Shown in pieces: positions 12,209-63,802 of a stretch of DNA of 64,000 nucleotides. Below the pieces are notes generated by a model. That model was not told where the DNA came from and did no database searches. It saw only the letters and a program-made list of their open reading frames with translations. Where the stretch lies: assembly GCA_951406725.2 (NCBI GenBank), contig OX597816.1, positions 99,758,001 through 99,822,000 of the forward strand. Reading direction: 5' to 3'. Every line of letters begins with the position of its first letter. Position 1 is the first letter of the stretch. The DNA is from Octopus vulgaris (taxonomy: Eukaryota). The position numbers and the translations under genes are program-made.

Positions 12209-12398
12209 AGGGGAGAATTCACAAAAAAACATAAGACGAAGACAGGTAGTGTAGACAACAAACAGATGTATTAGTATAACACTTGGGAAGGGAAAAAGTC
12301 TTTAATGATTCGAGCCTACACTCTTCTACAGAAAGGAACACAGAAAGAAACAAGGAGAGAAAATAAAGAATGTGTAGTGGCTAGAGATCTATCATGGT
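12209..12398 (-). mobile_element. Penelope pLTR fragment, same family as 23290-23485
   Basis: Reverse complement aligns along its length with the 3' end of the PLE at 22855-23487. Confidence 0.75.
12300..12335 (-). ncRNA. Degenerate minimal hammerhead motif (CUGUAGAA core)
   Basis: Minus strand: cuuu CUGUAGAA GAGU guag GCUC GAAUCAUU aaag. Confidence 0.5.
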
Positions 12399-13233
12399 GA
12401 AATATGTGTGTGTGTGTGCACCTACATACATATATTCTATATTTGTGAATTTTCAGACTACCTTAGGTTTCATGCATTTACAGTTTGCAATCTTCAAGTG
12501 TTCCATTTAAAAGATAATGGTTAAACCATCTCTGTTTTAGAATTGGCTACATGAGATTTCATGAGACATCAAATATTATTAGGTGGAGCAAAAGTAAAAT
12601 CAAAATACCCAGGTAATAGGAGGTAAATATTCAGAGACTTTGGCAGTTTATACTTTCTTTACACTTATATTGATTTTGAAAGTGGTAGTAAAATGCTAAT
12701 ATATATTCTTCTCTGTTATTAGCAGTTTATGGCATACATAATCTTGCAGTAAGTGTGCATGCCCAAGCAAAACTAAAAGAAATATTCATTTACATGGGAT
12801 GTGTATTTCGGATTTCGCTTTGTACCATCTGATAACATTTGAAATCTTGTGAAATCTCACATAACCAAACCAGAATAGAGAGAAAGATTACCATCGTTTT
12901 GTAAGTGGAACACTTGAAAGTTGTAAATCTTATGTACTTGAAACCAAAGGTGGCATAAAAAAAAATGCACAAGTAAAGGAGGCATTTATCCAGCAGTGCA
13001 ATGTTGTGTACTTCTCAAGGTTAGCTGGTAACATATATAGGTATATATGTGAATGTGTGTGTGTGTAGATTCAAATGAATATGGTACTTAAGTTAGGGCA
13101 CCAGACTTTAGTAACTTCTATGCTGAAGTAGAGACAACATGTTCTTTGTCTATCTACTTAACTTCTTGGAGATTTTAGGTATTATTATACTAATGTGTCC
13201 ATCTGTTTCATTTTAATTAAATTCTATGTCTTT

Positions 13234-13322
13234 GTGCAGCTGAAGATTGCTCTACATTTTCAATTGATGTAATGATTGCATTGTCCAATTAAATGGAGTT
13301 GCATGAAACGATTGTACTGCAT
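13234..13322 (+). ncRNA. Type I hammerhead motif with extended helix II
   Basis: gtgcag CTGAAGA ttgc...(~50 nt, partly self-complementary)...gcat GAAAC gatt GTA|ctgcat; helix I is gtgcag/ctgcat; followed by a pLTR-like end and (TA)n. Confidence 0.7.
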
Positions 13323-13370
13323 TACCTCTGGATATCCTTGTTTCTTATTTTGATGTGTATATATATATAT

Positions 13371-13428
13371 GTCCAACCCATGCTAGCATGGAGAACGGAC
13401 GTTAAACGACGATGATGATGATGATGAT
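13371..13428 (+). mobile_element. Extremely 5'-truncated RTE 3' end with (GAT)n tail, inserted in (TA)n
   Basis: gtccaacccatgctagcatggagaacggacgttaaacga is identical to 12144-12182. Confidence 0.85.
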
Positions 13429-13437
13429 ATATATATA

Positions 13438-13755
13438 TAATACAAAGTAGAGGAAAATTAAAGTGCAAATCCTAGGCAGTCAACCAAATTCCCAAAAGCA
13501 TAAATGAAGATATTCAATCAATGTAATTGAATCATATATATTTATACACATCAACATAAATAATGCATGTATAGGTGTAAAGATTCTCCAAGGGTATAAA
13601 GAACAAAACCAAACACATAAAAATACAGGAGAGATATAAAACATATAAAAATACATATAAAATCACATATAAATAAGGATTACATGTAAAAAGTTAAGCA
13701 TGATACAGGTTGACTGCCAAGGATTTGTGTTTTCATTTTCTTCTACTTTGTATTA
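13438..13755. repeat. Element with ~48 bp imperfect terminal inverted repeats
   Basis: taatacaaagtagaggaaaattaaagtgcaaatcctaggcagtcaacc ... ggttgactgccaaggatttgtgttttcattttcttctactttgtatta. Confidence 0.75.
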
Positions 13756-13811
13756 TTTTGCTTTAGCTCTCTATGAGCACTCCATAAATAGCCCATACTT
13801 TCTATAACATA

Positions 13812-13855
<44 letters not shown>

Positions 13856-13894
13856 TTATATGTATATATGTAAGTATAAATATGTATGTATGTG

Positions 13895-13941
<47 letters not shown>

Positions 13942-13996
13942 GCATATATATATGTATATGTAAACATACATTCATATATATGTACAAACATATATG

Positions 13997-14035
<39 letters not shown>

Positions 14036-14036
14036 T

Positions 14037-14072
<36 letters not shown>

Positions 14073-14096
14073 GATATATATATATATATATATACA

Positions 14097-14800
14097 TATC
14101 ATTATCATCATCGTTTAACATCCATTTTCCATGCTGGCATGAGTTGGACGGTTCAACTGGGGTCTGGGAAGCCAGGAGTCTGCACCAGGCTTCAGTCTTA
14201 TCTAGCAGTGTTTCTATAGCTGGATGCCCTTCCTAATGCCAACCACTCCAAGAACGTAGTGGGTGCTTTTTTACACGCCACTAGCACAGGAGCCAGAGGG
14301 GGTAGGCATCAACCACAATCGGATGGTGCTTTATATGTGCCACTGGCACAGAAGCCAGTCAAGGTGGTGCTGCATCGTCCACATTCGGATGGTGCTTTCT
14401 ACATTCCACCAGCATGGGTATCACAATTACAATTTCCATTTGAATGTGATTTTATTTGATTTTGATGTACTTGACTCAATAGGTCTCCTCAAGCACAGCA
14501 TGTTGTCCTACGATCCAAGGAACTTTTGGGTGGGCTGGTTATGCGACACTGGTGTGGGTTACAGCTGTGAACTCACTTTATTTACCAGGTCTTCTCAGTC
14601 ACAGCATATCTCCAGAGGTCTCAGTGTTTTGTCATTGTGAGGCCCAACATTTGAAGCTCATGCTTCAGCACCTCATCGCAAGTCCTCCTGGGTCTTCCTC
14701 TACTCCGGATTTCTTCCTGTGTGTGGGAGTGGCACTTCTTCACACAGCTCTCCTCATCCACCTGTAGTACAAGACCATACTAACGCAAATGTCTCTCTTG
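14097..14800 (-). mobile_element. Degenerate 5'-truncated RTE LINE
   Basis: Reverse-complement homology to 11440-12204 and direct homology to 55989-56630; (CAT)n tail at ~14097. Confidence 0.85.
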
Positions 14801-15567
14801 CTGACATTGAAAACATGTAAAATGATGATGATGATGATATAAACATGCATTCTTACATACATACAGTGTAAAAATATACCTCGTACAGATATGTTCAAGC
14901 ATAAGATGTATTGAGTTACCAAACTAGTTTCCTTCAAATAAATTATCTACTTGAATAACGACTTTCCTAATGAAAGCCATGTAATTACTGCTTCAGGTTT
15001 AACAAAATAAACATGTTCCTCAGAGTTTTATTCTTTAGAATTCGGTTTACTATTTGTTTATCTTGTAATTGCTGCATTTTAATTGTTCATGTTATAATTT
15101 GTGTTTACACTTTGGTTCAGTTCAGAATATATGCATGAGTGTAAGTATATTTGCATGTTCCCATGCAAACACACACACTCAGAAATATGCATTTGTGTGT
15201 GAATATATGTATTTAAATTAATATGTATATATATCATAATATATAAATTTGAAAATACACAAAATCTTGTGTAAAGGATGTGTGTGTGTGCTTGTGGCTA
15301 TGTGTATGTGTGTTGTGTTTGTGGCTATGTGTGTGTGTGTCTGTACGTCTGTCAGTCTGTTTGTCCGTCTGTTTGTCTGTCTGTCCACATGTGTGTGTAT
15401 AGTAAGCAAGCATGTATATAAACAAAGATGAACCAAAAGAAAGAAAATTGTCAAATGCAAATGGTGATCAAATTGCAATCCTTAGCCAATGTTTGTTCAT
15501 GTTTACAATTAAACTTCCTCTTTGATACCAAATATTCCAAAAGTAAATATTGTAACAATCAATCAAT

Positions 15568-15629
<62 letters not shown>

Positions 15630-15775
15630 ATAAATATGCATATTTAAATATTTGTGCATATGTGTATGCACATATACAGATACATGCATGCACACACACA
15701 TACACACACACATATATATGTATATACGATATACTTAGGTATTTAAATATATATGTACATATATGTATGCATATG

Positions 15776-15823
<48 letters not shown>

Positions 15824-16217
15824 CATATATATGTGTGTGTGTGTGTATATACATACATACATATATACATATATATAAGTGTGTCTATATATATATATAA
15901 ACACATACACTCACACACACATATGCAATCTATAATTTATCTACCACCCTCACTCTCTCATTCTCTCTCACTTTCTATATTGTTGTCTCTGTCTGCCTAT
16001 GTACTTGTAGTGTACATGTACAACCATATCAGTATAGACATATGCCTTCATAATCATACTCAAAACATGTTCTATGGCTTTGTCTGGGAAGTAAGAAATA
16101 AGTTTCATTGCTTTAGATAGAGTTTATTTAGTACATTTTAGTTGAAAGAACACAATAATTCCACACATGCATACTCATATACAAATGTGTGTGTATGTGT
16201 ATATATTTGTACATATA

Positions 16218-16443
16218 CAGTAAACCCTCGACTTTACATTCCCAAACCCCTGCGATAGGTGAAAATTGGCAAAGTAGAAACAGTACTGTACTGTATATTT
16301 TCTTAATTTATTTTTATAATTTGTACATATTTATCTTATTATAAATGCAAAACAACACCACAGAGGAATCAACATAAACTTAAATAATAAACTGTGATAG
16401 GTGAACCATGACAGGTGAACCGTGATATGGCGAGGAATTACTG
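16218..16443. mobile_element. pogo/Tigger-type MITE
   Basis: TIRs cagtaaaccctcg ... cgaggaattactg, preceded by TA. Confidence 0.7.
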
Positions 16444-18004
16444 AGCCATATATATATGAACTATTGTACATGTTTTAATGGCATTTGGGTAAATGTCTTC
16501 TACTATAGCCCTTGGCTGACCAAAGCCTTCTGAGTGGATTTGTTAGATGGAAACTGAAAGAAACCCAATTCTATATAAATCTAATATATAAATCCCATTC
16601 TATCTGTCTGTTTTTTGTGCATTTATAACTCGAGTACTGTTCATCTGATCGTGCTGAAATTTTAAGCATGGATACATGAGAGAGCAGGGCATTCCATAAT
16701 TTAAAAAGATTTTCAAAATTGTCAGTTTCAAAGTGAGAATCGCTAGTTTTGTAATATTTTTGTCCTGTTTCTTCCACCATCTTGTTCATTAACTGACGTT
16801 CTAAACAATTCATTTCTACTTTTTCACATTTATATGACAGATATATACAAATAAAGCTTACTATTTGTAAATACAGTCTCATTTTGATTTAAATATTAGA
16901 CCACGAACAACTGTATTCATTTCTGCGTTTTCACATGTTTGTAAGCAGCTAAAAAAATTTATATCACTTTAACTTTAATTAACTGTAATCAACCACGAGC
17001 ATTCGCAGTCTTACAGCTGTTTTTCATACAATAAACCAGCTGACATGAAAATCTACAAGGAAAAGGCAGTTACCTTAAATGAGCAAAAAAGTGAAAATAA
17101 AGCAAATAAATAACTGGTGATTACTCAATTTTCTGAAGATATTCTCAACAAAATTCAATTGAAAGTAGAAAAGACTAATTGATTACTTATAACATGTGAA
17201 AAATTAAGGGGGCAGGGTTACATCTAAAACCTTGCCTAAAGTTTCTCATCCAACTTTAAAAAATAAGTGGTATTGTTCAATTTTTGAGATGAAATTGATT
17301 TGCAAAGAATATGCCTTATGTTATTTTATTGCACATTGTGTTATTTCACCCCCAAGTTTCAACTCTTTTTGTGTCAGTTTTTGAGAGAAGAGAGACTTCC
17401 CTAAGCATTTTTGCACCTTTATTGAATAGCAGTTTCTATTTGCCTGTCCATCGAGTGATTTTTTTATTTGAAATTAATGTTACTTATCTCATATTTCTAA
17501 CCACTACGCTAGTGAAATTTGAAATAAAATACATAAAGCAACAGTCATCAAATGCAAAAGCTAGAGAACTGTTTATTGCTTAAACATTACTTGCAATATT
17601 CACTTTGGAGATAATACAGTATTCAGTCTGACGTAAAGGTGTCAACATGAGGTATGTACTATGGAAGAGTATATTGTGCTTATCCTAATGTGAAACTGCT
17701 TGAGTGCAAAAACTTTAAGGTTAATTATGATGTCTGACTCCACTGGACGTTGTATATATTGTGGGCTGAATAGCTTTCCTTCATTTTATTAGCCTCATGA
17801 CAATTTTGAAAAGGTTCACTGCGTTAAGATTCACTATCAATCAATTTTCCATATTTAGAAGAAACAGTCAACAGTTTTAACGTCTCAGGAATCTTTAATT
17901 CCCTAACCAAAAGTAACAACTCCATACAAACACCAAACATCTCCACAACTTAACACGGTCCAAGTTAACCCTCTTCACCTATACAAACTGTCTAAATGAT
18001 GCGG

Positions 18005-18300
18005 GGGGAGGCGTTTGCTAGTATATACATAATATGTGTTTGTGTGTGTGTGTGCACGCACACATACACACACACAAGTATCTATATGTGAGTGTATCTT
18101 TGTGTTTGTTCCCAACCACAGCTTGACAACTAGTGTTGGTTTGTCTTCATCCCTATAACTTAGCACTTCAGCTAAAAAGACCCATAAAATAAATACCAGA
18201 CTTTAAAAAAAATAATTTCTGAGGTTGACTCAGCTAACTAAATCCCTTCAAGGCAGAACCCCAACATGGCCACAGTCGAATGACTGAAACAAGTAAAAGA
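18005..18300 (+). mobile_element. Partial SINE, 3' half of the 20491 family
   Basis: Homologous to 20650-20890 (catggccacagtcgaatgactgaaacaagtaaaaga). Confidence 0.75.
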
Positions 18301-20490
18301 TGCCTTCTCCTCATGATTTTCCTTCTCAAACTGATCCAGTTCACTTTACCTATTAAAAATATTTCGTTTTTATTATTTGAAATTTCAAGTTGTATCCCTT
18401 GTTTTCCTTCACCAGAATTAGCCATTGAAGATAACACTTCTTTTTTTCCTCATATGAGTGTACTTTCAACAGATCAAACATTATTTTGGTTCACTAAATT
18501 AAGCTACTAATAGCCCTACTATATTTAACTTTACTTTAAAAACTTGGATTGATATTTTCTAGGGGCTAGAACCCATATAAACCTAGTATGATTTTTAAAC
18601 TAATGTATCTATCACTAATTAAAATATATTTGAATACCCCATTGTTCATGGCATAATAGCAGTGGAGGTGTATACTAAGTAATAGTTGATGAGTTAAGTC
18701 TGTATAGATACACATGGTCACCAAGAGAGCAACAAAATTGATTAGATGTCAAAATATGAGATGTGTTGTTGTTATTACAGTTATGATTTTTAGGAGAATT
18801 AACCTTGTCACTGGATACAAAATATTATTTCGTATTTACTATGGTTTGATCTATATTGTACTGTTGCTATGCTGACTGCTATTTTTTGTGTTAGTGATCC
18901 ACAGTTGTACATTGAAGAAGACAATGAAATCTATTGAGACTTTTGACAAACAAACTTTTATTCTTTTTATACGCAAGCAAAAGTGAAATACTGTTGTTAT
19001 TATGAACGACAGATATTGAGAGAGAGTTGTTATGTTATTGTTCTTGGTGTAATTCTAATAGTATTCAAAAAGGTAACTGCTAATTGTTGTGTTGCTGTGG
19101 TTGGTAGTTCATTATGCTAATGTCAGCTTGGTTCAGCCACTGCCTGCATCTGTTCACTGTCCATCTACCATGTTATTTCATGCTTTTTCCTCTACTTCCC
19201 AAAGCTCTCTCTGGTAGTCATGGTTTGTCACTTTTATACAGATTGATGGCACAGAAAGAGGCATGCCAGCAGTTGAAATTGTTACAGGAGCCTATTCCAA
19301 ATGAGGTTATGCTTGGCCAGATTTTGTTGATCATGTGGGTAATATTCTAGTGAATCACAACATCAAGTAATTGCAGAATATTCCTGCTACATTTTCATCA
19401 CCAGTTGTCATGAGATTCGTATTCTTGGTTATGTAGATGATACAGGCATCAAAGGCTTAGTGAATAAGAAAATCATTACTCTTATTTTAGAAATAATGGT
19501 TCGTAATTCAATTCCAGACTGGTACTATGTACACATTCAGGAATAAAACATATAATGAAGATTGGAGAGCAAAATGATGAAAGTGTCATGCAATGTAAAT
19601 ACTGAATAAAAAAAATATTCTTTTCTAAAGATGAGGTGAACATACAAAAATGATTATTGAATCAATAGAAGAGATGATTTTTTTTCCTCAATACTTGATA
19701 AGAATAAATTTGAAAAGTATAGAGATATATTTCCTTATGTGTTATACCGAAGATCTTAATCCATAAACAGGTTTCACTTTTTTGAGCAAGATAACTGTGT
19801 AAAACTCAGATATAGAATGACATCTTGACATATGAAAAGATTTTTAGATTCTACATACTTTTACTAAAGTTGAATTTTGAACAGTCTTGTGTTTTTGCAT
19901 CAACAGATAAAAAAACATTGTATATGCATACATACAATACATATATATTTTACACCGATTTTCCTATGCTGGCATACAAAGAACAGACACTTGAGGCAGT
20001 ATTGTTGCATACTCATACTTGATTTTGAAGTAAGGGTTTTCTTTTTTTTTCACAAAACATTAAAACAGTACAGTTACAGAATGTAGTGTTCACTGGGAAT
20101 ATAAACATGGTAAAACCACTTTTAGCTGAGGTGGTTTCATGTGAGGAAGTGAAAATGACAACTTCATGCACACACACACATATACACATGCTTATAGATA
20201 CATACAAACAAGCACACACACACACACATATCATACTCTTCCTCATCATCAACATTTTAACATCTATTTTTCCATACACGTATGGGCTGGATCGTATGTG
20301 TGTGCATGTGTGTATGCATGTGTGTGCGTGTGTGTGTGTGTGTGTGTCTGCATGCATGCATGTGAGTATAGGTGGGTGTATGTGTGTACAGAAAACATTT
20401 CTAAATATCTATAGGAATTGTTCTTTAAAATTGTTCTTTAAATATCTATAGGAATTGTTCTTTAAATGTGTTTTAAAGTAAATGTTTTTA

Positions 20491-20897
20491 GGCATAGGAG
20501 GGGCTGTGTGGTAAGTAGCTTACTTACCAACCACATGGTTCCGGGTTCAGTCCCACTGCGTGGCACCTTGGGCAAGTGTCTTCTGCTATAGCGTTGGACC
20601 CACCAAAGCCTTGTGAGTGGATTTGGTAGACGGAAATTGAAAGAAGCCCGTCGTATATATGTATATATATATGTGTGTGTGTATATGTTTGTGTGTCTGT
20701 GTTTGTTCCCTCAACATCGCTTGACAGCAGATGCTGGTGTGTTTACGTCCCCGTAACTTAGTGGTTCAGCAAAAGATACCGATAGATTAAGTACTAGGCT
20801 TACAAAGAATAAGTCCTGGGGGCGATTTGCTCGACTAAAGGTGGTGCTCCAGCATGGCCGCAGTCAAATGACTGAAACGAGTAAAAGAGTAAAAGAG
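20491..20897 (+). mobile_element. Full-length tRNA-derived SINE (family A)
   Basis: tRNA-like head with A/B-box-like motifs (ggctgtgtggtaag...gggttcagtccc), ccttgggcaagtgtctt, internal (TA/TG)n and (gtaaaaga)n tail; second full copy at 52091-52529. Confidence 0.9.
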
Positions 20898-21336
20898 AGC
20901 CAACACTGAGATTACTAACAAAAATATAAACAAATGTCTTGTAGATATTTCTTCCAGAAGCAAAATAGAAGGAGTTGACATGATATAGCTTGAAACCTTT
21001 TTTGGTTCTCTCAGGAAGCCATAAAACACAAATTAAGTACTATAATGAACACATTTCAACTGTATACAAACAAGGATGGTCACTGCTTGAAAGTTTTTGA
21101 TTACAGGTCCACTCCTTCAGGATAAAACAACAACCAGAGCGTCATCATCTTACCAGCCATTTATTGCCGGCAGAGGTCATGAGAACTGCATCCATTACTG
21201 GACCTGAGTTAAACTAATAAAGATACTGGTGATACAGCACATGGTTAGAATCAATATCATGGAAATAATAAGGATCTATTATTTGATCGTAGACAAATCT
21301 ATACTCAAGAGTTATGTAAAACCTCTTCACATATAA

Positions 21337-21553
21337 TTGTTAGTTTCAAATCTTGGCACAAGGCCAGCCATTTTGGGGGAGGGGTTAAGTCATTTACATC
21401 AATCCCATTGTTCAACTGGTACTTATTTTATGGACCATGAAAGGATGAAAGGCAAAGTGCACATTAGTGAAATTTGAACTCAGAATGTACAGACAGACGA
21501 AATGCCACTAAGCATTTTATCCAGCATGCTAATGATTTTGCCAGCTCATCACT
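21337..21553 (-). mobile_element. tRNA-derived SINE, family B (Meta-domain-like)
   Basis: gaaaggatgaaaggcaaagt...atttgaactcagaa is shared with 29872, 32985, 36866 and 53600. Confidence 0.8.
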
Positions 21554-22403
21554 TTAGTCACATACAGTTATTAAGGACAAGTCACATGATCTTACCAGAC
21601 AGCCAGTAAGAAAGCTTAATTTTTTTTTTAGAATAGGGGTCTAATCTGCTTCAACTCACACAATAGATATGCTTCATGAAGATTGAACTGGGATTAAATA
21701 GCAAGAACCATACAGCTAATACGAATAATAACAAGAATCATACAGATTGAAAGCATTTGAAATTCATGAGGTCATCTCCAATCACTAAAAAAATTGTAGA
21801 ATCTGAAATCAGTCCCAGAATTTTGGGCTTTAAGATTTTAGAAAGATTAGCACTCAAATTGTTAACCTATACTAAAATTCAAGAATTCTATAGAAACTCA
21901 GGTTATCAAATTCTGTACTTATGGAAGCTGTAAAGTAAAACAACTTATTTTAGGATTTGGCCTGCAATTTCACCGCATAGAAACTCAGGGATGAATTATA
22001 ATTATTCTAACACAATTTCAAGAATATTTAAAAGCTAAAATCAACATGTGTGTGTGTGACTGTGTGTGCATGCATAAATGTATATATATATATGTGTGTG
22101 TGTGTATGTGTATATACACATACATATATATATTTATACATATACACACATACCATTTTCAACTTTTTCTATCCTGAAGCAATTTTCAATCCAATATTTA
22201 CATGCTATTATTTGAAGCCTTATATGTAATTTGTGATCCAGTTCTCTCAAATGATTATAAATTCTTACGCCATCAACAATATATTTATACACACACACAC
22301 ACATATACACATACATATACATTTACATATTTATATATCATTTTCATCATTGTTTAACATCTGTTTTCCATGTGGGCATGGGTTATAAATATATATATAT
22401 ATA

Positions 22404-22834
22404 TCTTTATATATATAAAACTGAGAATGTGTATCTGTCTGTCTGTGTGTTTCCCTAAAACTTGAGAACTACACAACCAATTTCATTCAAATTTTACACA
22501 TGCCTTACTTAGGGTTCATGTAGTTTCATGGGCAAAAAAAATTAAAAATACCCCTCCACCCAGAAGTAGAGGTAGGCTGGATTGTAGCCACACTTCTATA
22601 CAAGAGGGAGGACAAGATACAATTGATCGAAATTACAAGAGACGGGCTAACAATTCCGGTCTGTTATATATTTTGAGTATTGTTATCACTAGCGATATCA
22701 AGATATAACTTTGTATTTTGTATTTTATGTGTAGATGTATATATATAGATGTACATGTAATATGTACACATATATATACACATATGTACATGCACTAGCA
22801 CTATGACCCGGCAATGACGGGTCTTCAATGCTAG
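22404..22834 (+). mobile_element. Non-autonomous Helitron
   Basis: A|TC 5' start (tctttatatatataaaactg..(tctg)n), 3' hairpin gacccg-gcaatga-cgggtc, CTAG|T end. Confidence 0.8.
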
Positions 22835-22854
22835 TATAGATATATATGACATTC

Positions 22855-23487
22855 TAGTCTCACGCCATTTCCGCTCCACCGGTCACTCCTTGCAACACCT
22901 GTCTGTGTTTGGATTGTCCTTGCACAGAGGCCATCCGGATTCCTGCTTGCGCCGTGAACAGGGATTAATCTTCTCTCTTCGCTCTTTTACGCCATTTGGG
23001 CTCAACTCCCCCCCTTTTTTTTTTCATCTAACCTCCCCCCGACTCCTACTTCTCTTCAGTCCTTCATCTTTTCACCCCTACTCTCTTTCCCTCCTCTTCC
23101 CTTCTTTCTCTTCCTCTTCTCTCCCCCTCCCCTCCTCTCTTCCCCCCCTCTCACTCTCCCCACAACCCCCACTCTACCCCATCCAAACCCACACCCCACA
23201 CGTTTTGGAAGTCACTTGACTCTGTTATCTCCCCTACTGTCCCTCCAGTGTCTAACATCGACCTCTGACCTCTGCCTGAAGTCAGAATGCCATGATAGAT
23301 TGTTAGCTCCTACACACATTTTTTTCTCTCCTTGTTTTTTTTCTGTGTATCTTTCTGTCGAAGAGCATAGGCTCGAAACGTAAAAGACTTGTTCTATTTC
23401 TATTCCTGAGTGCCATACTCATACATTTGTTTTATTTGTACTCCACCTGCCTTTGTCTTTTGTTTATTTTCGTAAACCTTCCCGTTA
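22855..23487 (+). mobile_element. 3' end of a Penelope-like element (GIY-YIG C-terminus and pLTR)
   Basis: SRHFRSTGHSLQHLSVFGL...LRREQGLIFSLRSFTPFGLN matches the PLE H-F..HS..E..I..L..P.GLN terminus; hammerhead motif downstream; ends in (TA)n. Confidence 0.85.
23350..23387 (+). ncRNA. Minimal hammerhead motif with variant core CUGUCGAA
   Basis: tcttt CTGTCGAA gagc atag gctc GAAACGTA|aaaga; helix I 5 bp, helix II 4 bp. Confidence 0.7.
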
Positions 23488-23834
23488 TATATATATATGA
23501 GTGAGTTTGGAGGGATGTATTATCTGGCTGGGTACCGTATTAGTTCTCAGTTAAGTTCCAGTTAACAGCTAACCCCCAAAGATCAGTATTTAACATCTGT
23601 AACTACAATTAGTTGTTAGTCACTCCATAAATTCTTCTGATGGGTAATTCCATGTACTCTTCACTGGACAGTAAAAATTGTCTGGAGTATATATTGTATC
23701 AGTGGAGTATACATTGCAACAGTGTGTTGCTACAGTGGAAGCACATGTAGGTCATTATAATACGCTGCATGTAACTATAAAATAAATTTTGTGGATGTAC
23801 ATGTCTCCACATTCTTTATTATTATTAGTATATA

Positions 23835-23841
23835 TATATGC

Positions 23842-23880
<39 letters not shown>

Positions 23881-23989: not shown

Positions 23990-24026
<37 letters not shown>

Positions 24027-52090: not shown

Positions 52091-52306
52091 CTTTTACTTG
52101 TTTCAGTCATTTGACTGCGACCACGCTGGAGCACTGCCTTTAGTCAAGCAAATCGACCCCAGCACTTATTTTTTGTAAGCCTAGTACTTATTCTATCAGT
52201 CTCTTATGCCGAATCGTTAAGTACGGGGACATAGATGTAAACACACCAGCATCGGTTGTCAAGCGATGTTGGGGGGACAAACACAGACACACAACCATAT
52301 ACATAC

Positions 52307-52365
<59 letters not shown>

Positions 52366-52529
52366 TACAACGGCTTCTTTCAGTTTCCGTCTACAAAATC
52401 CATTCACAAGGCTTTGGTCAGCCTGAGGCTATAGAAGAAGACATTTGCCCAAGGGGCCATGCAGTGGGACTGAACCCGGAACCATGTGGTTGGTAAGCAA
52501 GCTACTTACCACACAGCCACTCCTGCACC
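52091..52529 (-). mobile_element. Full-length SINE family A
   Basis: Reverse complement of 20491-20897. Confidence 0.9.
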
Positions 52530-53599: not shown

Positions 53600-53770
53600 G
53601 CTCATACAGAAACAGTTGTAATATTTTGGACATTCTGAGTTCAAATTCTACCAAGGTTTACTTTGCCTTTCATCTTTACGGAGTTGATAACATAAGCATC
53701 AGTTGAGCACTGGGGTTGATGTCATTGACTTACCCACTTACCCAAAATTGTACAAAAATTTAAAACTAAA
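53600..53770 (+). mobile_element. SINE family B
   Basis: ttctgagttcaaattct...ctttgcctttcatctttacggagttgataa. Confidence 0.7.
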
Positions 53771-53889
53771 AATTCAGCATCCTGCCCAGGGACAAATTTT
53801 ACTCTTATTCAATTGATACCCATAGAATACTCAAAAAAACTAAGTCATATGTACTAAGCTATGGGACTCTTGAAGTTCGTGAAAGGTTT

Positions 53890-54780
53890 TACCATTACCA
53901 CCACCACTATAAGTGCTAATGTTTCCTCCATAATATCATTGCAAATCGCAATGCTATTGCCATCAATTCTTTGATCACTATGAATATCCTCATTTGTTCA
54001 GCAAGTCTACTGTTACCCCTCACTGTAGCTATTATCATAAGCTCTAACATCACCACTTCCAAGATTTCCATCATCCCAGCTATCAATACTAACTCTATCA
54101 CTTCTTCCACTACTACTCTTACTACTAACACCATCATTACTACCACATTCATTAATTTGAGAAAATCACCAGAAACAGTATCAACAACAACAGTAAAAAT
54201 ACTGCTTTTAGAGTCAGCACTTACATATTATTGATGACAGTAACAGCACCAACACTACTTCAACTACTTTGTTCATTACTCCTGTGTATTGAAGCATTCG
54301 CCACCACTACCAACAAATGTACTAACCACATCACTGCAATAACTACCACCATCATCAACATTACTAGCCTCCTCCAGTACTACTACTACTACTACCACTA
54401 TTACTACACTACTACAACTACTACTACTACTGCTGCTGCTACTACTACTACTACTACTACTACTACTGCTACTACTACTACTACTACTACTACTAATAAT
54501 AATAATAATGATAATAATAGAACCACCACTCCCCATCACCATCAATATCATCACCACCACTATAACCATCACTACCAGCACCACCACCACCACTATCATC
54601 ATCACCAGCACAACCATCACCAACACCACTATCATCATCATCATCACCACCACTACCATAAACACCACTACTATCATCACCATCATCACCACCAAAAGCA
54701 CCTCAGCACCAACACCAGTACCTCTATCATATCACCAGATACCTTCAGCATCAAGATGATTACTATCTCCGTCTTCATCA
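53890..54780. repeat. Compound trinucleotide low-complexity tract (ACT/CAT/CAC/AAT)
   Basis: Runs of (act)n, (aat)n, (cat)n and (cac)n. Confidence 0.9.
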
Positions 54781-55284
54781 TTGATAAAACTATCTCAGCA
54801 CAGTTTCATGTATCAGGTTACTTGGTAGATACACGAGTGCATACATAGTTGCATAAAATCAGGATGGCTGCAGCAGTTTACATCAGGGTGCAGTGCATAT
54901 GGACAGTAAGCTTATATATCACAGACTGTTAAAATTAGAGATGTTCCTTGTCTCTGAATGTACTATCATTGGAAGTTATATATTAATAGAAGCTAGTTTC
55001 ATATGTATGTTTATATATGCGTAAATAGATAAGTATATGTAGGTATATATTTATGTGTGCGTATTTGAGTGTTTGTATGAACAAATACATATCTAGACAT
55101 ATAATAAAATGCATGCATATATGTATATATATCTACATAAATAAATAATATATACATGCATAAATAATATGTATGTAAGAATGTATGTATTTATGTATGT
55201 ATGGAAATATATGCATCCATATATCTATATATGAATATATCTTTCACTTTCCACCTCTCTCTCTCTCACTTTCTCTGTCTCTGC

Positions 55285-55340
<56 letters not shown>

Positions 55341-55724
55341 GTGTGTGTATACATGCATATATGTGTGTGTATGTATATATATGTGCATATATTTAAATAT
55401 ATATGTATATATGCAATGTATACATATGTACATGTGTGTGTGTGTGTGTGTGTATGTGTTAGACATGACAGCAAACATTAAAGCAAGACAAACATCTCAA
55501 GTCGTATACAATATTATTATAGGAAGAAATTCAAAATCTTACAGCTGTTTCTGGGATATCCCCAAGTATGGATATTCCATCATCAGAGACAAATAGGGAA
55601 AAAAATAGGGAAAATGAGAATGGTATATATTAATGAGATGACGACATAGAGAAAGGGAGTGAAAGATTAAGGAGATGGAAGAAAAAGAAGCATAAAAATT
55701 CCTAGTTCATCATTCCTATTTCAA

Positions 55725-55984
55725 CATTCCAGTTATTCAGGTCTCTGTACAAAATTCTTCATGGTAAAAATTTCAATTCCTTGGATGACGCAAAAAAGAT
55801 ACCTTGATGAATTCTTTGCCATGAAACCACCTCAATTCTGAGAAGAGGGTATTTTCAAGTTAAAGGAAAGATGGAGACACATTGTGCAACAAAATGGTTC
55901 ATATTTGGTTGATTAAAAATGTAATAGCAAGTATTTATTGACCTTCTTCTTTCCATTGGCACAAACTTTCTGGACAACCCAATA
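55725..55984 (+). mobile_element. Mariner transposase C-terminus and right TIR
   Basis: LHGKNFNSLDDAK/YLDEFFAMKPPQF*EEGIFKLKERWRHIVQQNGSYLVD*; ends actttctggacaacccaa|ta. Confidence 0.85.
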
Positions 55985-55988
55985 TCAA

Positions 55989-57135
55989 CATCATCATCAT
56001 CATCATCATCGTTTAACATCAGTTTTCTGTGCTACCACTGGTTGAACAGTTCGACCGGGGTCTGGGAAGCCAGGAGGCTGCACCAGGCTGCAGTCTGATC
56101 TGGCAGTGTTTCTACAGCTGGATGCCCTTCCTAACGCCAACGACTCCGTGAGTGTAGTGGGTGCTTTTTATGTGCCACCAGCACAGAAGCCAGTCAAGGC
56201 GGCACTGGCATGGCCATGTTTGGATGGTGCTTTTTATGTGTCACTGGCACAGGTATCACAACTACTATTTCCATTTGATATTTATTTCGATGTTCATGTA
56301 CTTGACTCAATAGGTCTCCTCAAGTACAGCAGGTTGTTCTGCAATCCAAGGTACTTTGAATGGGCTGGGGCTATGCAAAACTGGTGCAGGAAGCAGCCCG
56401 GTTCTTTGCAGTCACAGCATATCTGCAGAGATCTTGGTCCTTCATCATTGCCTCTGTGAAGCCCAATGCTCGGAGGTCATGCTTGACTACCTCATCCCAT
56501 ATCTTCCTGGGTCTACCTCTCCCCCTGATACCTTCAACTGTTTGGGAGTGGCACTTCTTCACACATCTCTCCTCATCCATCCGCAGTACATGACCATACC
56601 ATCGCAAGTGTCTCTCTTGCACACTACATCTGATGCTTCTTATGTCCAGCATTTCTCTCAGGGTGCTTATACTCTGTCGTGCATGTACACTGACATTACA
56701 CATCCAGCGGATCATGTTAACTTCATTTCTTTCAAGTCTATGCATGTCCTCTGCAGTCACAGCCTATGTTTCACTACCGTGAAGCATGGCAGTTTGCATA
56801 CATGCATCATACAATCTACCTTTTACTCTGAGCGAGAGACCCTTTGTCGCCAGTAGGGGTAGGAGCTTTGCCCAGGCTATTCGTATTCTAGTGGTGACAC
56901 TCTCTGAGGATCCGCCTCCACTACTAACTTGGTCACCTAGGTAGCGTAAACTATCAACTACTTCTAGTTTCTCCCCCTGGGGTGTGATGGAATCTGTTTT
57001 CTGAGTATCTGTGGTGTCTATTGTCCCTGTGCATCTGCCACACATGAAAGCTATCTTATCAGTTAATTTCCCTTTGATGTTGCTGCACCTCTTATGCATC
57101 CATAGCTTACACAGGGTACATCTTATGGAGTTTAT
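55989..57135 (-). mobile_element. 5'-truncated RTE LINE with PHD-like finger, RT C-terminus, 3' UTR and (GAT)n tail
   Basis: [18 protein letters not shown]; [12 protein letters not shown]; [26 protein letters not shown]; LRWYGHVLRM..RGRGRPRKIW. Confidence 0.92.
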
Positions 57136-57154
57136 GCATATATATGTATGCATA

Positions 57155-57206
<52 letters not shown>

Positions 57207-57320
57207 TATATGTATGTATATATGTATGTATATATGTATGTATATATGTATGTATATATGTATGTATATATGTATGTATATACATGTATGTATGTATATA
57301 TGTATGTATATACATGTATG

Positions 57321-57357
<37 letters not shown>

Positions 57358-57473
57358 TTATGTGTATATTTATGTATGTATATATGTATGTATATGTATG
57401 TATATATATATATGTGTGTGTATATATAATATATGTATGTATGTATGTATATGTATGTATATGTATGTATATA

Positions 57474-57830
57474 TGAGGACAGCTGATATCTTGAGTACTG
57501 AGGCAATGGTGCACAGGCACCAGTTATGTTAGACTGGACACCTTGTTAGAATGAAGTGTAGCAGGATTCCTAAGCAGATGCTATATGGGGAACTTTGAAT
57601 GGAAAAAGACCCTAGCAGAAACCAAGTCTGCAATTTAAGGACAGAGTCAAGTTTTCATTGAAGGCTTGTGGTATGTAGGAGACTAACTGGGAGAGCAATG
57701 CCTGTCATCACCACAGATAGAGGAGGTAGGGTAAGGAGGGGGTCGACAATTTTGAGAGAGCACATATTCTGCATGAAGAACTTAAGCATGTTAGAAAGCG
57801 CACTGCTGGTGTACTCTTCTATTTGTAGTT
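57474..57830 (+). mobile_element. RTE (BovB-like) LINE C-terminal fragment
   Basis: [37 protein letters not shown]...KACG...NWES. Confidence 0.8.
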
Positions 57831-58039
57831 TTACAAATGAGACAACTTTTTCAGTATATTTGCTACATTCTCCATGCATATTTACATATACTGAGAGATG
57901 CATGACTTTGGAGAGTTTTAACTCTTTCTAGCAAACAAGTGCATATTGTACACTAATTTTTAATATATATTTTGCATATTTTGCCTATCTGGTTATGCTT
58001 GCTGGCCACTTTATCATTATGTTTTCAAAGATAATGATA

Positions 58040-59330
58040 ACCTACTTGAATTTTGTATATATATATACTTAATGGTAATTAAAAACAACACCACAATCAC
58101 AACTGATATTTATTACAAAAGCACAGATACACACCATTGCCTAAATTTCAAATCATGCCAACCAGCACACACAAAACACAACATCCCGTCCTGTCATCAC
58201 CACAGATAGAGGAGGTAGGGTAAGGCGAGGAAAATTAGTGCTATAGTTGATGATCCAAATACCAGAAGCACTTGACTTATAGAACTCAAAGGATTTCTGC
58301 TCAAGCAACATTACCCTCACCTACTTATAGAAAATAGCATACAATGAGCAAAAGAGGTGCCTATAGAACAACTTGGAGTAACACAAAAAACACAAACCCA
58401 TCAAAGGAACACAATACCATTTCTAGTAACACACAATCCACATCACCAAAACATTTTTAACAGCATCAAAACAAATTTGCTAGTCACAAAACAAAATGAA
58501 GAACTAAAAAACATAATAACTAATCAAACACTTATCTTAAGCAAAAGGTAACCACATAACCTAAAGAAACTATTTACAAAGGCAAAATTCAACATGTACA
58601 ACTGGGACGACACATTCACAGAATCCAAGTGTAATGATTACAAATGTGGAATGTGTCAATACATGCATCCAGGTAGATCCATTAGAACAAAAGATGGACA
58701 GATTTTCACAAATGCAGGAATGAACTGCAAAAGCAGAAATTTGAACTATTGCATTAAATGCCTGAATTGCAAGGAATTATATATAGGCAAGACAAGGAAT
58801 GCATTTTCAGAATGTTCACAAGACCACAGACAACAAATCCAGAACTCTAATGTTCGCCAAATTCCATTGAGTGAACGTATAGAGACATGTGGTCAGAAAA
58901 TGTTTCTAATTTTTCCTTTCCACAAATTATTTGACACAAGGCAGTCTAGAAGAAAGATAAAAGAAAAACGGTTTATTTAAATATTCAAACCTGTTCTGAA
59001 TGGAAATAACAGCAATAATATAACAGCCAGTTAATGATGTGGATTAATAAGTATAAACAAGTTACAGAATATTGGTATGCCTGGCAAACCGTGATGTTTA
59101 AGAGCATGTGAATTGATCAAAAAAATATTCTAAAAACTCAGCTGATTGGAGTGTTCTATGAGGTACTAAAGTTGTCAAGAACTCAACTGTTTGTTATACA
59201 CATTTGAAATCTGATGAGTACACTATGTATGAAAGCGTCAATTTTATTAAAATACCATAATAAAAAACACAAAATCCAGACTATGTTTTAACTTTATTCA
59301 ACTGATATATTATTCTATACACATTCACAC
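58040..59330 (+). mobile_element. Decayed Penelope-like element (RT thumb, GIY-YIG and pLTR)
   Basis: TDIYYKSTDTHHCLNFKSCQPAHTKHNIP; CNDYKCGMC; MNCKSRNLNYCIKCLNCKELYIGKTRN..HRQQI; hammerhead motif downstream. Confidence 0.9.
59205..59246 (+). ncRNA. Minimal hammerhead motif
   Basis: tgaaat CTGATGA gtac actat gtat GAAA gc GTC a atttta. Confidence 0.6.
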
Positions 59331-59356
59331 AAAATCAAAACAAAATATATATGCAT

Positions 59357-59649
59357 GCCATCCGTTCGTGTCCGTTGGCAGCCTCGCCTGGCCCCCGTGC
59401 CGGTGGCACGTAAAAACACCATCCGTTTGTAGCCGTTTGCCAGCTCTGTCTGGCACCTGTGTAGGTGGCACGTAAAAAGCACCCACTACACTCACGGAGT
59501 GGTTGGCGTTAGGAAGGGCATCCAGCCGTAGAAACACTGCCAGATCTGACTGGGCCTGATGAAGCCTTCTGGCTTCACAGACCCCAGTTAAACCGTCCAA
59601 CCCATGCCAGCATGGAAAACGGACGCTAAATAATGATGATGATGATGAT
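59357..59649 (+). mobile_element. RTE 3' UTR fragment with (GAT)n tail
   Basis: Homologous to 6920-7208. Confidence 0.9.
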
Positions 59650-59656
59650 ATATATA

Positions 59657-60521
59657 CAGGATGTGATAGTTAAAGTGTTGCCATTGTATATTTTTAATTT
59701 TGCATATGTGCATTGTTTTTAATTTTCTCAGTTACTAGTCAACACTAGTAGGATCAGTTGGGTCCCATCTGTGAGAAAAACAGCACTATGACACAATTCA
59801 TTCTGCCAGAAATTTGGAACTGACCTACTGTACTGCTTGGCATTTGTACAGAAAGCTCCAATATGAATATTTGAGAGTGTTTAGGTGTCAATTTGAGGAT
59901 AGTGCAATCTGAGGACATGTACTGAGAGTGATAAAAACCAACCATTCAGTCATCATGGTATTTGAAGTGATCACTAGTGATGGTGACATTATGCCTCCAC
60001 ACAGCCTCAGACTCAACACAGAAGCCTGAATCAAGTGCCTAGAGGAGGTAGTGCTGCCCTGGGTCAAAAGGGTGGCTGCTGGAAAACCCTATGTCTGACA
60101 GCAAGACTCTGCACACAAGCAGGAGACCCCAGTCATGGCTGTCAGAAAATTTTTGCAACCACTTCACCCCTAACATCTGGCCATCTAACTCCCCAGACTG
60201 CAACTCCTTTGGTTATAATGTGTGGGATACAGTTGAGCATGAGACCAACAAAACTCCTTGTAACACCAATGATGAGCTGAAGGCAAGTATTATGGCAGTA
60301 TTCACCAACTTAAACAAGGAAACTATCCAGGAGAGTTTCAGGAGATCCAGAAGTCGTGTGGAGGCCATGGTTGAAGGCAGTGGTGATTTATTGAATAAAT
60401 TTATTCTTTTGTATTTCAAGATATTTTTATGTAATTTTAATAAATATATCTGTTAAAATGAGATGTCAGTGTTATTTTCATTTTTGCATAACTTAAACAA
60501 CATTTTATTCACTGCACCCTG
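59657..60521 (+). mobile_element. Internally deleted Tc1/mariner-superfamily element
   Basis: TA|caggatgtg ... cactgcaccctg|TA; WPSNSPDCNSFGYNVW catalytic-region motif. Confidence 0.85.
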
Positions 60522-60589
60522 TATATATATATATATATATATATATATTCATATAGCTGGTGAAAGAGTGACCAATGATTTCACTTTTA

Positions 60590-60760
60590 CAATCTTTCCT
60601 TTCCACAAACTACATGGCTCAAGGGAGGTTGGAAGAAAGATAAAAGAAAAATGGTTTATTAAAATGTTCAAACCTGTTCTGAATGGAAACAACAGCAATA
60701 ATATAACAATCAGTTAATGATGTGGATTAATAAGTATAAACAAGTTACAGAATATTGGTT
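60590..60760 (+). repeat. Direct repeat of the PLE ORF end and 3' UTR (58905-59077)
   Basis: ttcctttccacaaa...gttacagaatattggt is shared. Confidence 0.9.
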
Positions 60761-60833
60761 TGCTAAATACATTTCTGCTCTATGCTTTAGAGTGTGCTTC
60801 TTTTTTGGTTATGATACATTAACAATATATATA

Positions 60834-61430
60834 CAGGGTGCGATGGGTAAATTGATGCCATTTTATATTTTTAATTTTGCACATGTGCCTTGTTTGTTTT
60901 TGATTTTGGTTGATTGGGCACCATCTTTGAGGAAAACAGCACCATGATTTAATTCACTTTGCCAGGAATTTGGAAACAACATGCTCTATTGCTTGGCATT
61001 CATGCTGGAAGCTCTAATATGAACATTTCAAAGTGTTTGGATATTAATCTGAGGATGGTGCAATCTGCAGACATGTACCAAGTATGATAAAAATCAAACA
61101 TCCAGCCAGCATCATGCTTCCATTCATCTTCTCACATGACCTCAGATTCAACATGGAAGCCTACATCAAGTGCCTGCCAGGAAGAGCTCATGCTGTCCTG
61201 GGTCAAGACAAGAATTGCTGGAAGAGGCTATGTCTGGCAACATGACTGTGCACCATGCCACACAAGCTGGAGAACCCATTCATGACTGTCAGACAATTTG
61301 TGACCACATTACCCCTAACGTCTGGCCATCTAACTCCCCAGACTGCAACCCCCTTGATTAATGTGTGGGACACAGCTGAGCGAGAGACTTACAAAACTCC
61401 TTGTAACACCAAAGATGAACTGGAGGCAAG
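60834..61430 (+). mobile_element. Second, 3'-truncated copy of the 59657 Tc1/mariner-like element
   Basis: TA|cagggtgcg TIR; WPSNSPDCNPLD; colinear with 59657-60285. Confidence 0.85.
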
Positions 61431-62409
61431 CTTTGGTGCCAAGCTACCCTCAATAATAATAGTAACAACTTCTTTGATATAACCATGGGCTCCTCTGACT
61501 TCGCTTTGGTTGTAGATCCGGTCAGACTATACCTCCTCCAGTAACTCCACATATATTTTCCTAACATCAAGGGGAATTTGTATAGGGATGATGCATTGTT
61601 GGTTACTATAGGCCTAACTAAATCCATATTAGAGAAGACTAGAAAAGATTTACATAAATTCTTTGCTAATTTCAATTTATCTATAGATTTAAAATCTTCA
61701 CTATACTACCCCTACCATAAGCCTAATCAATACTTCAGATACATTAGCACAAACTCTAATCACCATAAATCTACCTTTGATAGTGTAATCAAAAGCATAT
61801 CTATTCAGATATTTGATCTCTCATCTATGGAGGAAATCTTCAATCACCATGCTACATACAACCAGGCACTAGCTGCTAGCAGCTTTTCCCAGCAAATTAA
61901 ATTCATAGCTAACACTAGGGTTAAAAAACACACATGTAAACTCAGTTCCAGTGGGACATGCCCCACTACTAGACATATTAACCCATCCACTATAGACAGA
62001 CAAAACTAAAACCCTGCTAGAAACCTAGAAGGACCATGTGTGAGACGCTCTCATTCACCCTGTGCTCAGCCCTATAACACTCAATCAAAATTCAAACTGA
62101 TAAACAACAATGAATCCTACAACTCTCCTCAAACAAATACTGTAGATTATATTTCCTCTATATTGCCTAATAAACATGGGGAAAGGCCAATTCTCTGGTT
62201 TACGCTCCTATTCACTTTAAACGTTAAGAGCTTAGCCAAAATCTTTTTTCAAATAGTAGACTCTAACTTCCCACATCTCCATAAGTACCATTCAATCTTC
62301 AACAGATCTACTCTGTAATTATTCCACTCCTCTCCACCCAATATAGAACCTATTGTTACCTCTTCCAATAAGTGTAAACTTAATTCCTACTACCTATATA
62401 TATATATAT

Positions 62410-62630
62410 AATTACGGTAATTCAAAATGTGACTGCATGTGTACCATTGGTGATTTTTTTTCCTCTGTCTTCCCTTCCTTGGATCTTTCCTTTTCCTATG
62501 TTTCTGACGAAGAGCTCTACTTGAAACATTAAACCCTCTTCTTTCCTGAGCGTCCAATAATACTATACTTGTTCCCCGTCCTCGCGTTGTTGTGTTTTCT
62601 CTTTGTGTTTTCATGTTTGGATTAACTATA
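62410..62630 (+). mobile_element. Solo pLTR nested in TA sequence within the PLE
   Basis: Similar architecture to 23290-23485; flanked by (TA)n. Confidence 0.65.
62500..62534 (+). ncRNA. Minimal hammerhead motif (CUGACGAA core, decayed helix II)
   Basis: gttt CTGACGAA gagc tct actt GAAACATT|aaac. Confidence 0.6.
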
Positions 62631-63750
62631 TATAATCCTAACATGGGTCAATACAGTGAAAACACTAACACCGAACATGATAGTATATACCACACCCATA
62701 ACCCTAGCACTATAACCAGTATAACCAGGATACAAGCATGTCCACTTCCAAGGTAGGTCAGAGTACAGCTAAAACGAATGTTAATGCTAATAGCACTACT
62801 AATGCTAATAATTCTAATACAACCAGTACTACCACTACACTAATACTATTACTATGACTAATCATAATAATAATAATAAAACAAGCCAATCCCCTAATAC
62901 CACCCTAAACTTTAACTTGTCCATAAATGGTACAGCATCTTCCCAATCCACAACTAACCTACATAAGACAGATAGTTGCAACTGCCAGTCCAGGACCAAA
63001 TGCCAACTGCATAAGGTTTAACATAGTATACAAATGCATTGTCCACAACATATAATTCTACTAGCTACTACATCAAGTCTACTATTAATTTTAAACAGAG
63101 ATATTCTGCACATCTAAACTCATTTAAATATGAAGAGCATAGCAAATCCATGTCCTTAGCCAACCACATACACCATCTGATAAATAGGAGAGTATCATAT
63201 AGGATATCCTGGGCTATAATAGATTCTGGCTTACTAAGGCCAGTGCTCTACATGTAGACTCTGTCTGAAAGGGCCTTCCAAATATTAATTCATAATTTGC
63301 CACAATTACTCAATAAACAGCATGAAGCATTTTCTACAAGCAAGCATAAGTTCTTTTGCACCTGTAGATTCTTCCATTGATCCAAATGCAAGCAAAACCA
63401 ATGCACATAACACTTGCCTATATGCATCCATGGTCATTACAATATATGTACGTTTTTCCTTTCCTTTTCTTCTCTATCAACATAAGTATCTGAGAAGCTA
63501 GCTAGCTTTAATTCATAAATTTTTAATTTCTAACTTTCAATTTTAAATTTTTAACTTAACTTTTTTAATTTTTAATTCTTTAATTCGTATCCTTTATCCA
63601 TTTAATTGTAATTTCATCCTATTTATACCCCTTAAGCTTGGTATCTATTTTTAACTATTCCTACTGGCCACTGGCCACACCCAATCTAGATTCCATCTAT
63701 TTAATAAGCATAAATATCTTTCCACTTTCACTTTATCAAAACCTTTATAT

Positions 63751-63802
63751 GCCAACTGTAGAAGAAGGATTAATGAAAATGCTTTAGCTTGAAAGTTTTG
63801 GC
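63751..63802 (+). ncRNA. Hammerhead-like motif (CUGUAGAA core) downstream of the PLE ORF
   Basis: gccaa CTGTAGAA gaagg...gctt GAAAGTT|ttggc; helix I gccaa/ttggc. Confidence 0.5.

What the first reader, a model, noticed from the sequence alone, without database searches (positions are those of the whole stretch)
12300..63802. Family of hammerhead variants with a non-canonical CUG(U/A)NGAA core and covarying helix I
Seen: four motifs (12300-12335 minus, 23350-23387, 62500-62534, 63751-63802) share CUG-U/A-N-GAA, helix II, GAA(A)..UH. Helix I differs but stays paired: cuuu/aaag, ucuuu/aaaga, guuu/aaac, gccaa/uuggc. Three have U at core position 6 and all have an extra A after A9. Established: A6 is highly conserved in canonical HHRs, and minimal PLE HHRs with very short or palindromic helix III are thought to act as dimers. 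Inference: the same A6U change in at least two distinct PLE families suggests a functional lineage-specific core variant that standard CUGANGA searches would miss.
Basis: partly seen in the sequence, partly recalled or inferred. Interest (0 to 1): 0.7.

Follow-up and report, generated by a model that had tools for sequence, protein, structure and literature searches.

The report
Penelope hammerhead with altered core letter
A very abundant Penelope-type jumping gene in this animal genome carries a minimal hammerhead RNA motif with U in place of the nearly invariant core A6, and the rest of the motif has stayed conserved across the element's subfamilies, so it likely still works as a slow self-cutting RNA, though cutting is untested.

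Summary
Three of the four motifs are real minimal hammerheads; the fourth (63751-63802) is a chance look-alike in a local inverted duplication. Motifs 1 and 2 are copies of one family; motif 3 belongs to a sister family with canonical A6. So U6 occurs in one lineage, not two. The extra A after A9 is the published trait of Penelope minimal hammerheads.

U6 is not copy decay: 10,247 of 10,681 genome matches carry it. It sits in both pseudo-LTRs of autonomous Neptune-like Penelope elements (968-aa RT plus GIY-YIG ORF), and the closest relatives have A6. Across subfamilies defined by flanking sequence alone, only 3 of 38 motif columns changed (N7, H17, outermost helix I pair), against 23-29 of 91 in the 3' flank (p 0.003-0.02). 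That is the pattern of a hammerhead under selection.

Cleavage is not shown. Insertion ends do not pile up at the cut site, in this family or the A6 sister, and published A6 mutants are weak. I found no natural U6 core in the papers searched; one key paper was unreadable. Verdict: new variant of a known kind.

The parts
22846..23486 (+). 5'-truncated copy of the U6 Penelope-like element: end of the GIY-YIG coding region, 3' UTR and pseudo-LTR end, between TA runs
   Evidence: tblastn to residues 910-968 of the full-length protein, 88% identity; sequence; blastn to L003
22848..23024 (+). C-terminal piece of the endonuclease coding region
23350..23387 (+). Motif 2: intact minimal type I hammerhead. 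Helix I 23350-54/23383-87, core CUGUCGA 23355-61 with U6 at 23358, extra A 23362, helix II 23363-74, GAAA, palindrome ACGU 23378-81; predicted cut after 23382
   Evidence: family counts
12210..12400 (-). Short (about 190 bp) copy of an older subfamily of the same U6 family; ends approximate
   Evidence: 76% to motif 2's surroundings over 182 nt; alignment
12300..12335 (-). Motif 1: decayed hammerhead, core CUGUAGA with U6 at 12328; A15.1 and the palindrome are mutated
62420..62627 (+). Short copy of the A6 sister family; ends approximate; its parent ORF was not reached
62500..62534 (+). Motif 3: canonical-core (CUGACGA) minimal hammerhead, with helix II and palindrome decayed in this copy
63749..63866 (.). 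Imperfect palindrome from a local inverted duplication of an old unrelated repeat; holds motif 4, which is not a hammerhead

Best explanation
The U6 motif is the pseudo-LTR hammerhead of an autonomous Neptune-like Penelope element; it carries one inherited A6-to-U change and likely still acts as a slow self-cleaving ribozyme, predicted to work only when two copies pair through their ACGU palindromes. Shown: position in both pseudo-LTRs, U6 as the family state, A6 in relatives, and conservation of the rest of the motif across subfamilies. Inferred: the transcript starts about 110 nt upstream of the cut site; a lone motif does not cut, so short copies keep it whole; rare double-hammerhead cleavage and re-ligation between 5' and 3' motifs (or tandem units) would give a circular template that yields more-than-unit-length copies and tandem arrays. 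U6 would lower the rate further.
For: U6 in 10,247 of 10,681 exact matches; in 107 of 111 copies picked by sequence outside the motif; in 24 of 24 motifs found downstream of 30 ORF-anchored hits; and in 76 of 76 motifs found at 86 pseudo-LTR/5' UTR junction loci. L233 has a 968-aa ORF between two U6 motifs 4,380 bp apart; L234, L235, L239 and L245 also have two. Among five flank-defined groups only N7 (all four bases), H17 and the outer helix I position vary: 3 of 38 columns against 23 of 91 in the 3' flank (p 0.018). Other groupings and a label-free count give p 0.0025-0.025. H17 group states are A, U or C, never G. In four runs under four organism labels no other letter reaches 5% at position 6, while position 7 shows all bases. 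Many contigs match only over 23351-23390 and diverge on both sides. Tandem arrays with an intact motif in each unit exist. Natural A6C is slow but active (PMC3088659, PMC7151607).
Against: No cleavage data. No pile-up of 5' ends at the cut site: 0 of 67 resolved ends in near-full-length copies (15 ran off the fetched stretch, 4 unresolved). Among 30 ends directly joined to a TA run, 5 fall in the five positions around the cut, about 5 expected (counted by eye from 44 distinct loci). The raw list has about 6 of 100 ends at +1 to +4, which A-rich microhomology could explain. A saturation study reports low activity for all changes in the CUGA turn except the C3-G8 swap, with no rescue by a second change (PMC9901934). 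Loop II, expected to be free, is also invariant, so the conservation is not purely catalytic in pattern. The subfamilies are not very old (3' flanks differ by 2-23%). A sister subfamily spread with U4C, which suggests loose constraint on the U-turn. Template jumping explains the arrays without cleavage.
Confidence: 0.5

Rival explanations
1. The motif no longer cuts to any useful degree but its fold or sequence is kept for another job, such as a signal for the element's reverse transcriptase, a dimerisation site that aids template jumps, or part of the internal promoter.
For: Whole 38-nt block conserved, loop II included. No cut-site footprint. 59 of 79 copies end between -120 and -40 with the motif whole. 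6 of 8 mini-unit junctions rejoin at -92 to -102, not at the cut. A6 mutants are weak in vitro. U6 allows the core to close on the palindrome in the U7 subfamilies (pair probability 0.4-0.5).
Against: The positions that changed are the ones a catalytic hammerhead leaves free, and H17 avoided G at group level. The A6 sister shows no footprint either, so its absence says little. The closed-core fold is rare (0.06 or less) in the C7, A7 and G7 copies.
Confidence: 0.3
2. The ribozyme died once in a master element and hitch-hiked; its apparent conservation reflects the short history of the family and the fast decay of its low-complexity flanks.
For: One origin of U6 only. The flanks are T/C-rich and indel-prone. 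The test against the 3' flank alone is modest (p 0.0025-0.025). Naiad elements spread without canonical hammerheads (PMC8557442).
Against: N7 took all four states across groups while its neighbours took one; 3 of 3 variable columns in a 7-of-38 permissive set has p about 0.004, with the set chosen by me. The endonuclease region of an old-subfamily copy is 79% identical to a young copy (includes decay after insertion).
Confidence: 0.13
3. One reading: a U6 core that arose in several independent Penelope families as a lineage-wide functional variant.
For: Only the two window motifs; 643 further U6-type matches with a different helix II start.
Against: Of 30 such loci read, 29 have the flanks of the same family and 1 is a stray copy of an A6 family. 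The pattern required CGAAACGT, so families with other palindromes were not covered.
Confidence: 0.07

Closest known systems
Minimal hammerheads (min-HHR) of metazoan Penelope-like elements (Cervera and De la Pena 2014, PMC4209133; read: parts 1-2 of 4 of the main text, parts 1-2 of 3 of the supplement)
   Same: Type I, 4-5 bp helix I, extra nucleotide after A9, G10.1-C11.1, palindromic 15.2-16.2 with no loop III, position in both pseudo-LTRs, thousands of truncated copies.
   Different: Their consensus is CUGANGAH and every core in the Fig. S3 rows returned has A6 (variants are U3-A8 and U3); this family has U6.
Hammerhead of the Neptune element printed in Fig. S3 / Table S1 of PMC4209133 (GCU CUGACGAA GGGC UAAC GCUC)
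   Same: Matching motif (identical apart from N7 or 16.2 in single copies) beside close RT relatives of this element (L259, L263, L290; 57-59% identity); same 4-bp helix II with a 4-nt loop.
   Different: A6, helix I GCU/AGC, helix II GGGC rather than GAGC.
A6C natural variant of phage Bcep176 (PMC3088659, passages; PMC7151607, parts 1-2 of 4)
   Same: Natural change at core position 6; a weakened but active precedent.
   Different: C rather than U; one phage sequence rather than a family of over 10,000 copies; a full hammerhead rather than a dimer-dependent minimal one; activity was measured.
Short-stem-III hammerhead variants of Penelope-like retrotransposons (Lunse, Weinberg and Breaker, RNA Biol 14:1499; seen only as a reference entry and one review sentence in PMC6765202)
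   Same: Same class of element and dimer model.
   Different: Not readable here; whether it lists a U6 core is unknown.
Animal non-LTR retrozymes (bioRxiv 10.64898/2026.07.22.740005, part 1 of 5 read; PMC7229834, search listing only)
   Same: Tandem units of a few hundred bp, each with one hammerhead, derived from Penelope pseudo-LTRs; L423 and L424 look like young examples.
   Different: Here the arrays are single insertions of internally deleted copies of the autonomous element; no spreading array family was shown.

Membership tests
Metazoan PLE minimal hammerhead | Helix I closing the motif (type I) and helix II starting G10.1-C11.1 | tested here: met
   helix I 4-5 bp, helix II GAGC/GCUC
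Metazoan PLE minimal hammerhead | Extra nucleotide between A9 and G10.1 | tested here: met
   A in 110 of 111 copies; trait described in PMC4209133
Metazoan PLE minimal hammerhead | Palindromic helix III stub, A15.1-U16.1 and H17 | tested here: met
   ACGU in the family; H17 is A 83, U 25, C 1, G 0 of 109. Broken in window motif 1.
Metazoan PLE minimal hammerhead | Core CUGANGA with A6 | tested here: not met
   U6 in 10,247 of 10,681; of the first 100 non-U matches 68 are C, 21 A, 11 G (counted by eye)
Metazoan PLE minimal hammerhead | Located in both pseudo-LTRs of a PLE | tested here: met
   L233, L234, L235, L239, L245
Metazoan PLE minimal hammerhead | Self-cleavage as a dimer | not testable with these tools
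   needs an in vitro assay; the genomic footprint test was uninformative
EN+ Penelope-like elements | [quoted passage not shown] | tested here: met
   RVT_1 E 6e-8; homologues carry PF00078, PF26215 and PF01541; NIIY...YIGQT read from L235, L238, L247. Pfam did not hit the endonuclease piece itself.
EN+ Penelope-like elements | Pseudo-LTRs, partial tandems, inverted 5' copies | tested here: met
Neptune/Nematis clades | CX2-5CxxC linker before the endonuclease; microsatellite targeting | tested here: met
   CSRPRCRTC; TA-run flanks; definition from PMC8557442 passages
Neptune (as against Nematis) | RT phylogeny groups with named Neptune elements | tested here: inconclusive
   no tree with named references was built; close relatives carry the hammerhead printed for a Neptune element
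Naiad/Chlamys | N-terminal endonuclease | tested here: not met
   the endonuclease is C-terminal
Hammerhead (motif 4, 63751-63802) | Core and helices shared by other copies of its repeat | tested here: not met

The most novel reading that the evidence does not exclude
A highly successful autonomous Penelope lineage carries a hammerhead that A6U has all but silenced, yet keeps its fold under purifying selection in both pseudo-LTRs. It would be a natural knock-out showing that Penelope hammerheads have a job other than cutting, for example pairing the two RNA ends or guiding the reverse transcriptase.
Probability: 0.3. Interest if true: 0.7.

Novelty: new variant of a known kind. Interest (0 to 1): 0.5.

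Why it matters
The role of hammerheads in Penelope-like elements is described as unclear (PMC8557442), and A6 is treated as fixed in search descriptors. This family offers a natural pair: a U6 lineage with over 10,000 copies and intact ORFs, and an A6 sister in the same genome. If U6 cleaves, the core rule needs an exception that saturation mutagenesis did not predict, and descriptor searches undercount these ribozymes. If it does not cleave, the element spreads without cutting while still conserving the fold, which points to a non-catalytic role. Either result comes from one simple assay.

Tried and rejected
Second U6 family with helix II GGCUG/CAGCC: rejected, 98 of the first 100 matches have A6. 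Motif 4 as a hammerhead: rejected. Cut-site footprint of 5' ends: no peak in the U6 family, and none by eye in 100 rows of the A6 sister, so the test cannot tell active from dead. One search used 79 of the 100 rows; I left out 21 rows, mostly truncated, deleted or duplicated ones, so it under-counts ends near the cut. Closed-core hairpin as the reason for U6: holds only for U7 copies. Parsimony counts on a tree of short flanks were noisy, and that set of 250 copies included loci picked for motif variants; only its group table was used. Parent ORF of the A6 sister: not reached in 56 upstream stretches. Expression: no RNA holder listed; the runs laid were contigs. One search listed no letter differences at all on the 56-nt stretch, so it gives no allele counts. 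Folding energies of the short motifs do not beat shuffles (z -1.2 to 0.8). In one search the row for L149 was given on the wrong strand and was ignored. Literature: ten full-text searches, including 'A6U' and 'CUGUNGA', listed no paper describing a natural U6 core; I read passages or parts of ten papers, none in full. Lunse et al. and one further review were not held. In the supplement of PMC8557442 I saw 2 of 5 hits for one U6 word, both in coding sequence. The mutagenesis values behind PMC9901934 were not seen; its supplements and bioRxiv supplements may bear on the A6U rate. Earlier findings by sequence and by U6 words gave nothing on this variant.
Full report
Observation. The window is a microsatellite-rich stretch of a 2.8-Gb animal genome. 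Motif 4 fails the scan. It lies in a 118-nt imperfect palindrome, and other copies of that old repeat lack the core at the matching place. Motifs 1 and 2 share 76% identity over 182 nt and are one family. Motif 3 belongs to a separate family in which all 33 copies in the 30 best loci have A6.

U6 is the family state. A pattern with positions 6 and 7 left free has 10,681 exact matches in the genome and none for the reversed control. Only 434 lack U at position 6, and by eye 68 of the first 100 of those are C, as expected from decay. Samples chosen without reference to the motif agree: 107 of 111 copies anchored on the 3' flank or the ORF, 24 of 24 motifs behind 30 endonuclease hits (6 had none within 900 bp), and 76 of 76 at 86 pseudo-LTR/5' UTR junctions. 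In four sequencing runs under four organism labels, position 6 shows no other letter at 5%, while position 7 shows all four. An apparent second U6 family turned out to be A6.

The host element. Motif 2 ends a 5'-truncated copy that begins in an endonuclease coding region at 22846. Searching with that region gave L233, a 968-aa ORF between two U6 motifs 4,380 bp apart; L234, L235, L239 and L245 have two motifs as well. [quoted passage not shown] With TA-run targets this fits the Neptune/Nematis definition in PMC8557442 (passages). Related elements from metagenome records carry A6 motifs: 5 of 5 on the coding strand, found among 80 loci, most of which do not reach the 3' end. Three loci carry the motif printed for a Neptune element in PMC4209133. 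The A6 sister shares the 3' flank and helix II stem with the U6 family. So A6 is ancestral and U6 arose once, by inference. The extra A after A9 and the palindromic stub are the published traits of these ribozymes.

Is the U6 motif under selection? I grouped the 111 copies by flank sequence only. Between group majorities, 3 of 38 motif columns differ: N7 (C, U, G, A, U), H17 (A or U) and the outer helix I base, which adds a U-A pair in young groups. In the 3' flank 23 of 91 columns differ by substitution (p 0.018), and other groupings or a label-free count give p 0.0025-0.025. N7 and H17 are the free positions of the hammerhead consensus (PMC7151607), and no group has G17. Contigs of older copies match across the motif and diverge on both sides. 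Against a purely catalytic reading, loop II is invariant too, the family is not very old, and a subfamily of the A6 sister spread with U4C (about 12 of 100 rows by eye; 12 of 54, five of which I picked for it).

Does it cut? This is not shown. 5' ends do not pile up at the predicted cut: 0 of 67 resolved ends in near-full-length copies, and about the expected share among TA-joined short copies. The A6 sister shows no peak either, so the test is uninformative. Short copies mostly end between -120 and -40 (59 of 79), with few beyond, which suggests a transcript start near -110 and an uncut motif in the template. Upstream pseudo-LTRs run from under 100 to over 1,000 bp. There are tandem full units at 4.47-kb spacing and arrays of 465-493-bp units with an intact motif in each. 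These need a more-than-unit-length template. A ribozyme-made circle is one source, as proposed in PMC4209133; template jumps from the RNA 5' end are another, and 6 of 8 mini-unit junctions rejoin at -92 to -102. Biochemistry is cautionary: all changes in the CUGA turn were low in a saturation study except the C3-G8 swap (PMC9901934, passages), while natural A6C is slow in Mg2+ and good in Mn2+.

Reading. Most likely (0.5) this is a slow, dimer-dependent ribozyme that tolerates U6 and is still selected for cleavage. A fold kept for a non-catalytic job (0.3), neutral hitch-hiking (0.13) and several independent origins (0.07) are the rivals. It works like a Penelope minimal hammerhead but fails one defining feature, A6, so it is filed as a variant.

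Novelty. Ten full-text searches listed no description of a natural U6 core, and every core in the Fig. S3 rows of PMC4209133 has A6. The most relevant survey of Penelope hammerhead variants could not be read, so the claim is provisional. What remains is one lineage-fixed core change in a very successful autonomous element, with an A6 sister beside it for a direct test. Interest 0.5.

Noticed in passing
L382-L386, L002, L024, L148, L216 (A6 sister family of motif 3): A subfamily carries U4C in the core (CCGACGA), tied to a 3' flank variant; a second U-turn change that spread in a related lineage.
   Followed up: partly
L423 (G000:C8:18598500-18604500), L424, L401, L406, L407, L411, L412, L429, L456, L470: Internally deleted mini-units in which the 5' UTR rejoins the pseudo-LTR, mostly at -92 to -102; L423 holds five motifs at 492-493 bp spacing plus an inverted piece. 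They look like retrozyme arrays being born from the autonomous element.
   Followed up: partly
L425-L426 (G000:C6:117389500-117407900): Three head-to-tail full-length units at 4.47 kb spacing with four motifs.
   Followed up: partly
L233 near 2900; junction pattern (166 matches): The pseudo-LTR end is followed by TATATA inside the element, which could prime reverse transcription internally at a nicked TA run and so produce the many short copies of about 210 bp. Inference only.
   Followed up: partly
window 57976-58980 (+): Decayed second Penelope-like element, RT to GIY-YIG region, about 25% identical to the U6 family protein.
   Followed up: no
window 61545-62318 (+): Broken reverse-transcriptase fragment with YRDD and YYPYHKP; resembles Naiad elements from recall, untested.
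   Followed up: no
window 60052-60456 (+): Open frame that resembles the end of a Tc1/mariner transposase, from recall, untested.
   Followed up: no
window 3278-5436 and 9069-10959; 5666-6923: Large inverted duplication (96-97% identity) around a 351-bp tandem repeat of 3.6 units.
   Followed up: no
window 11085-11218: Near-perfect 134-nt hairpin, probably a small inverted-repeat element; its Rfam microRNA hit is below the curated threshold.
   Followed up: no
L104-L123: A further abundant minimal-hammerhead family with canonical A6 and a longer helix II, 3,779 exact matches, several in close inverted pairs.
   Followed up: partly
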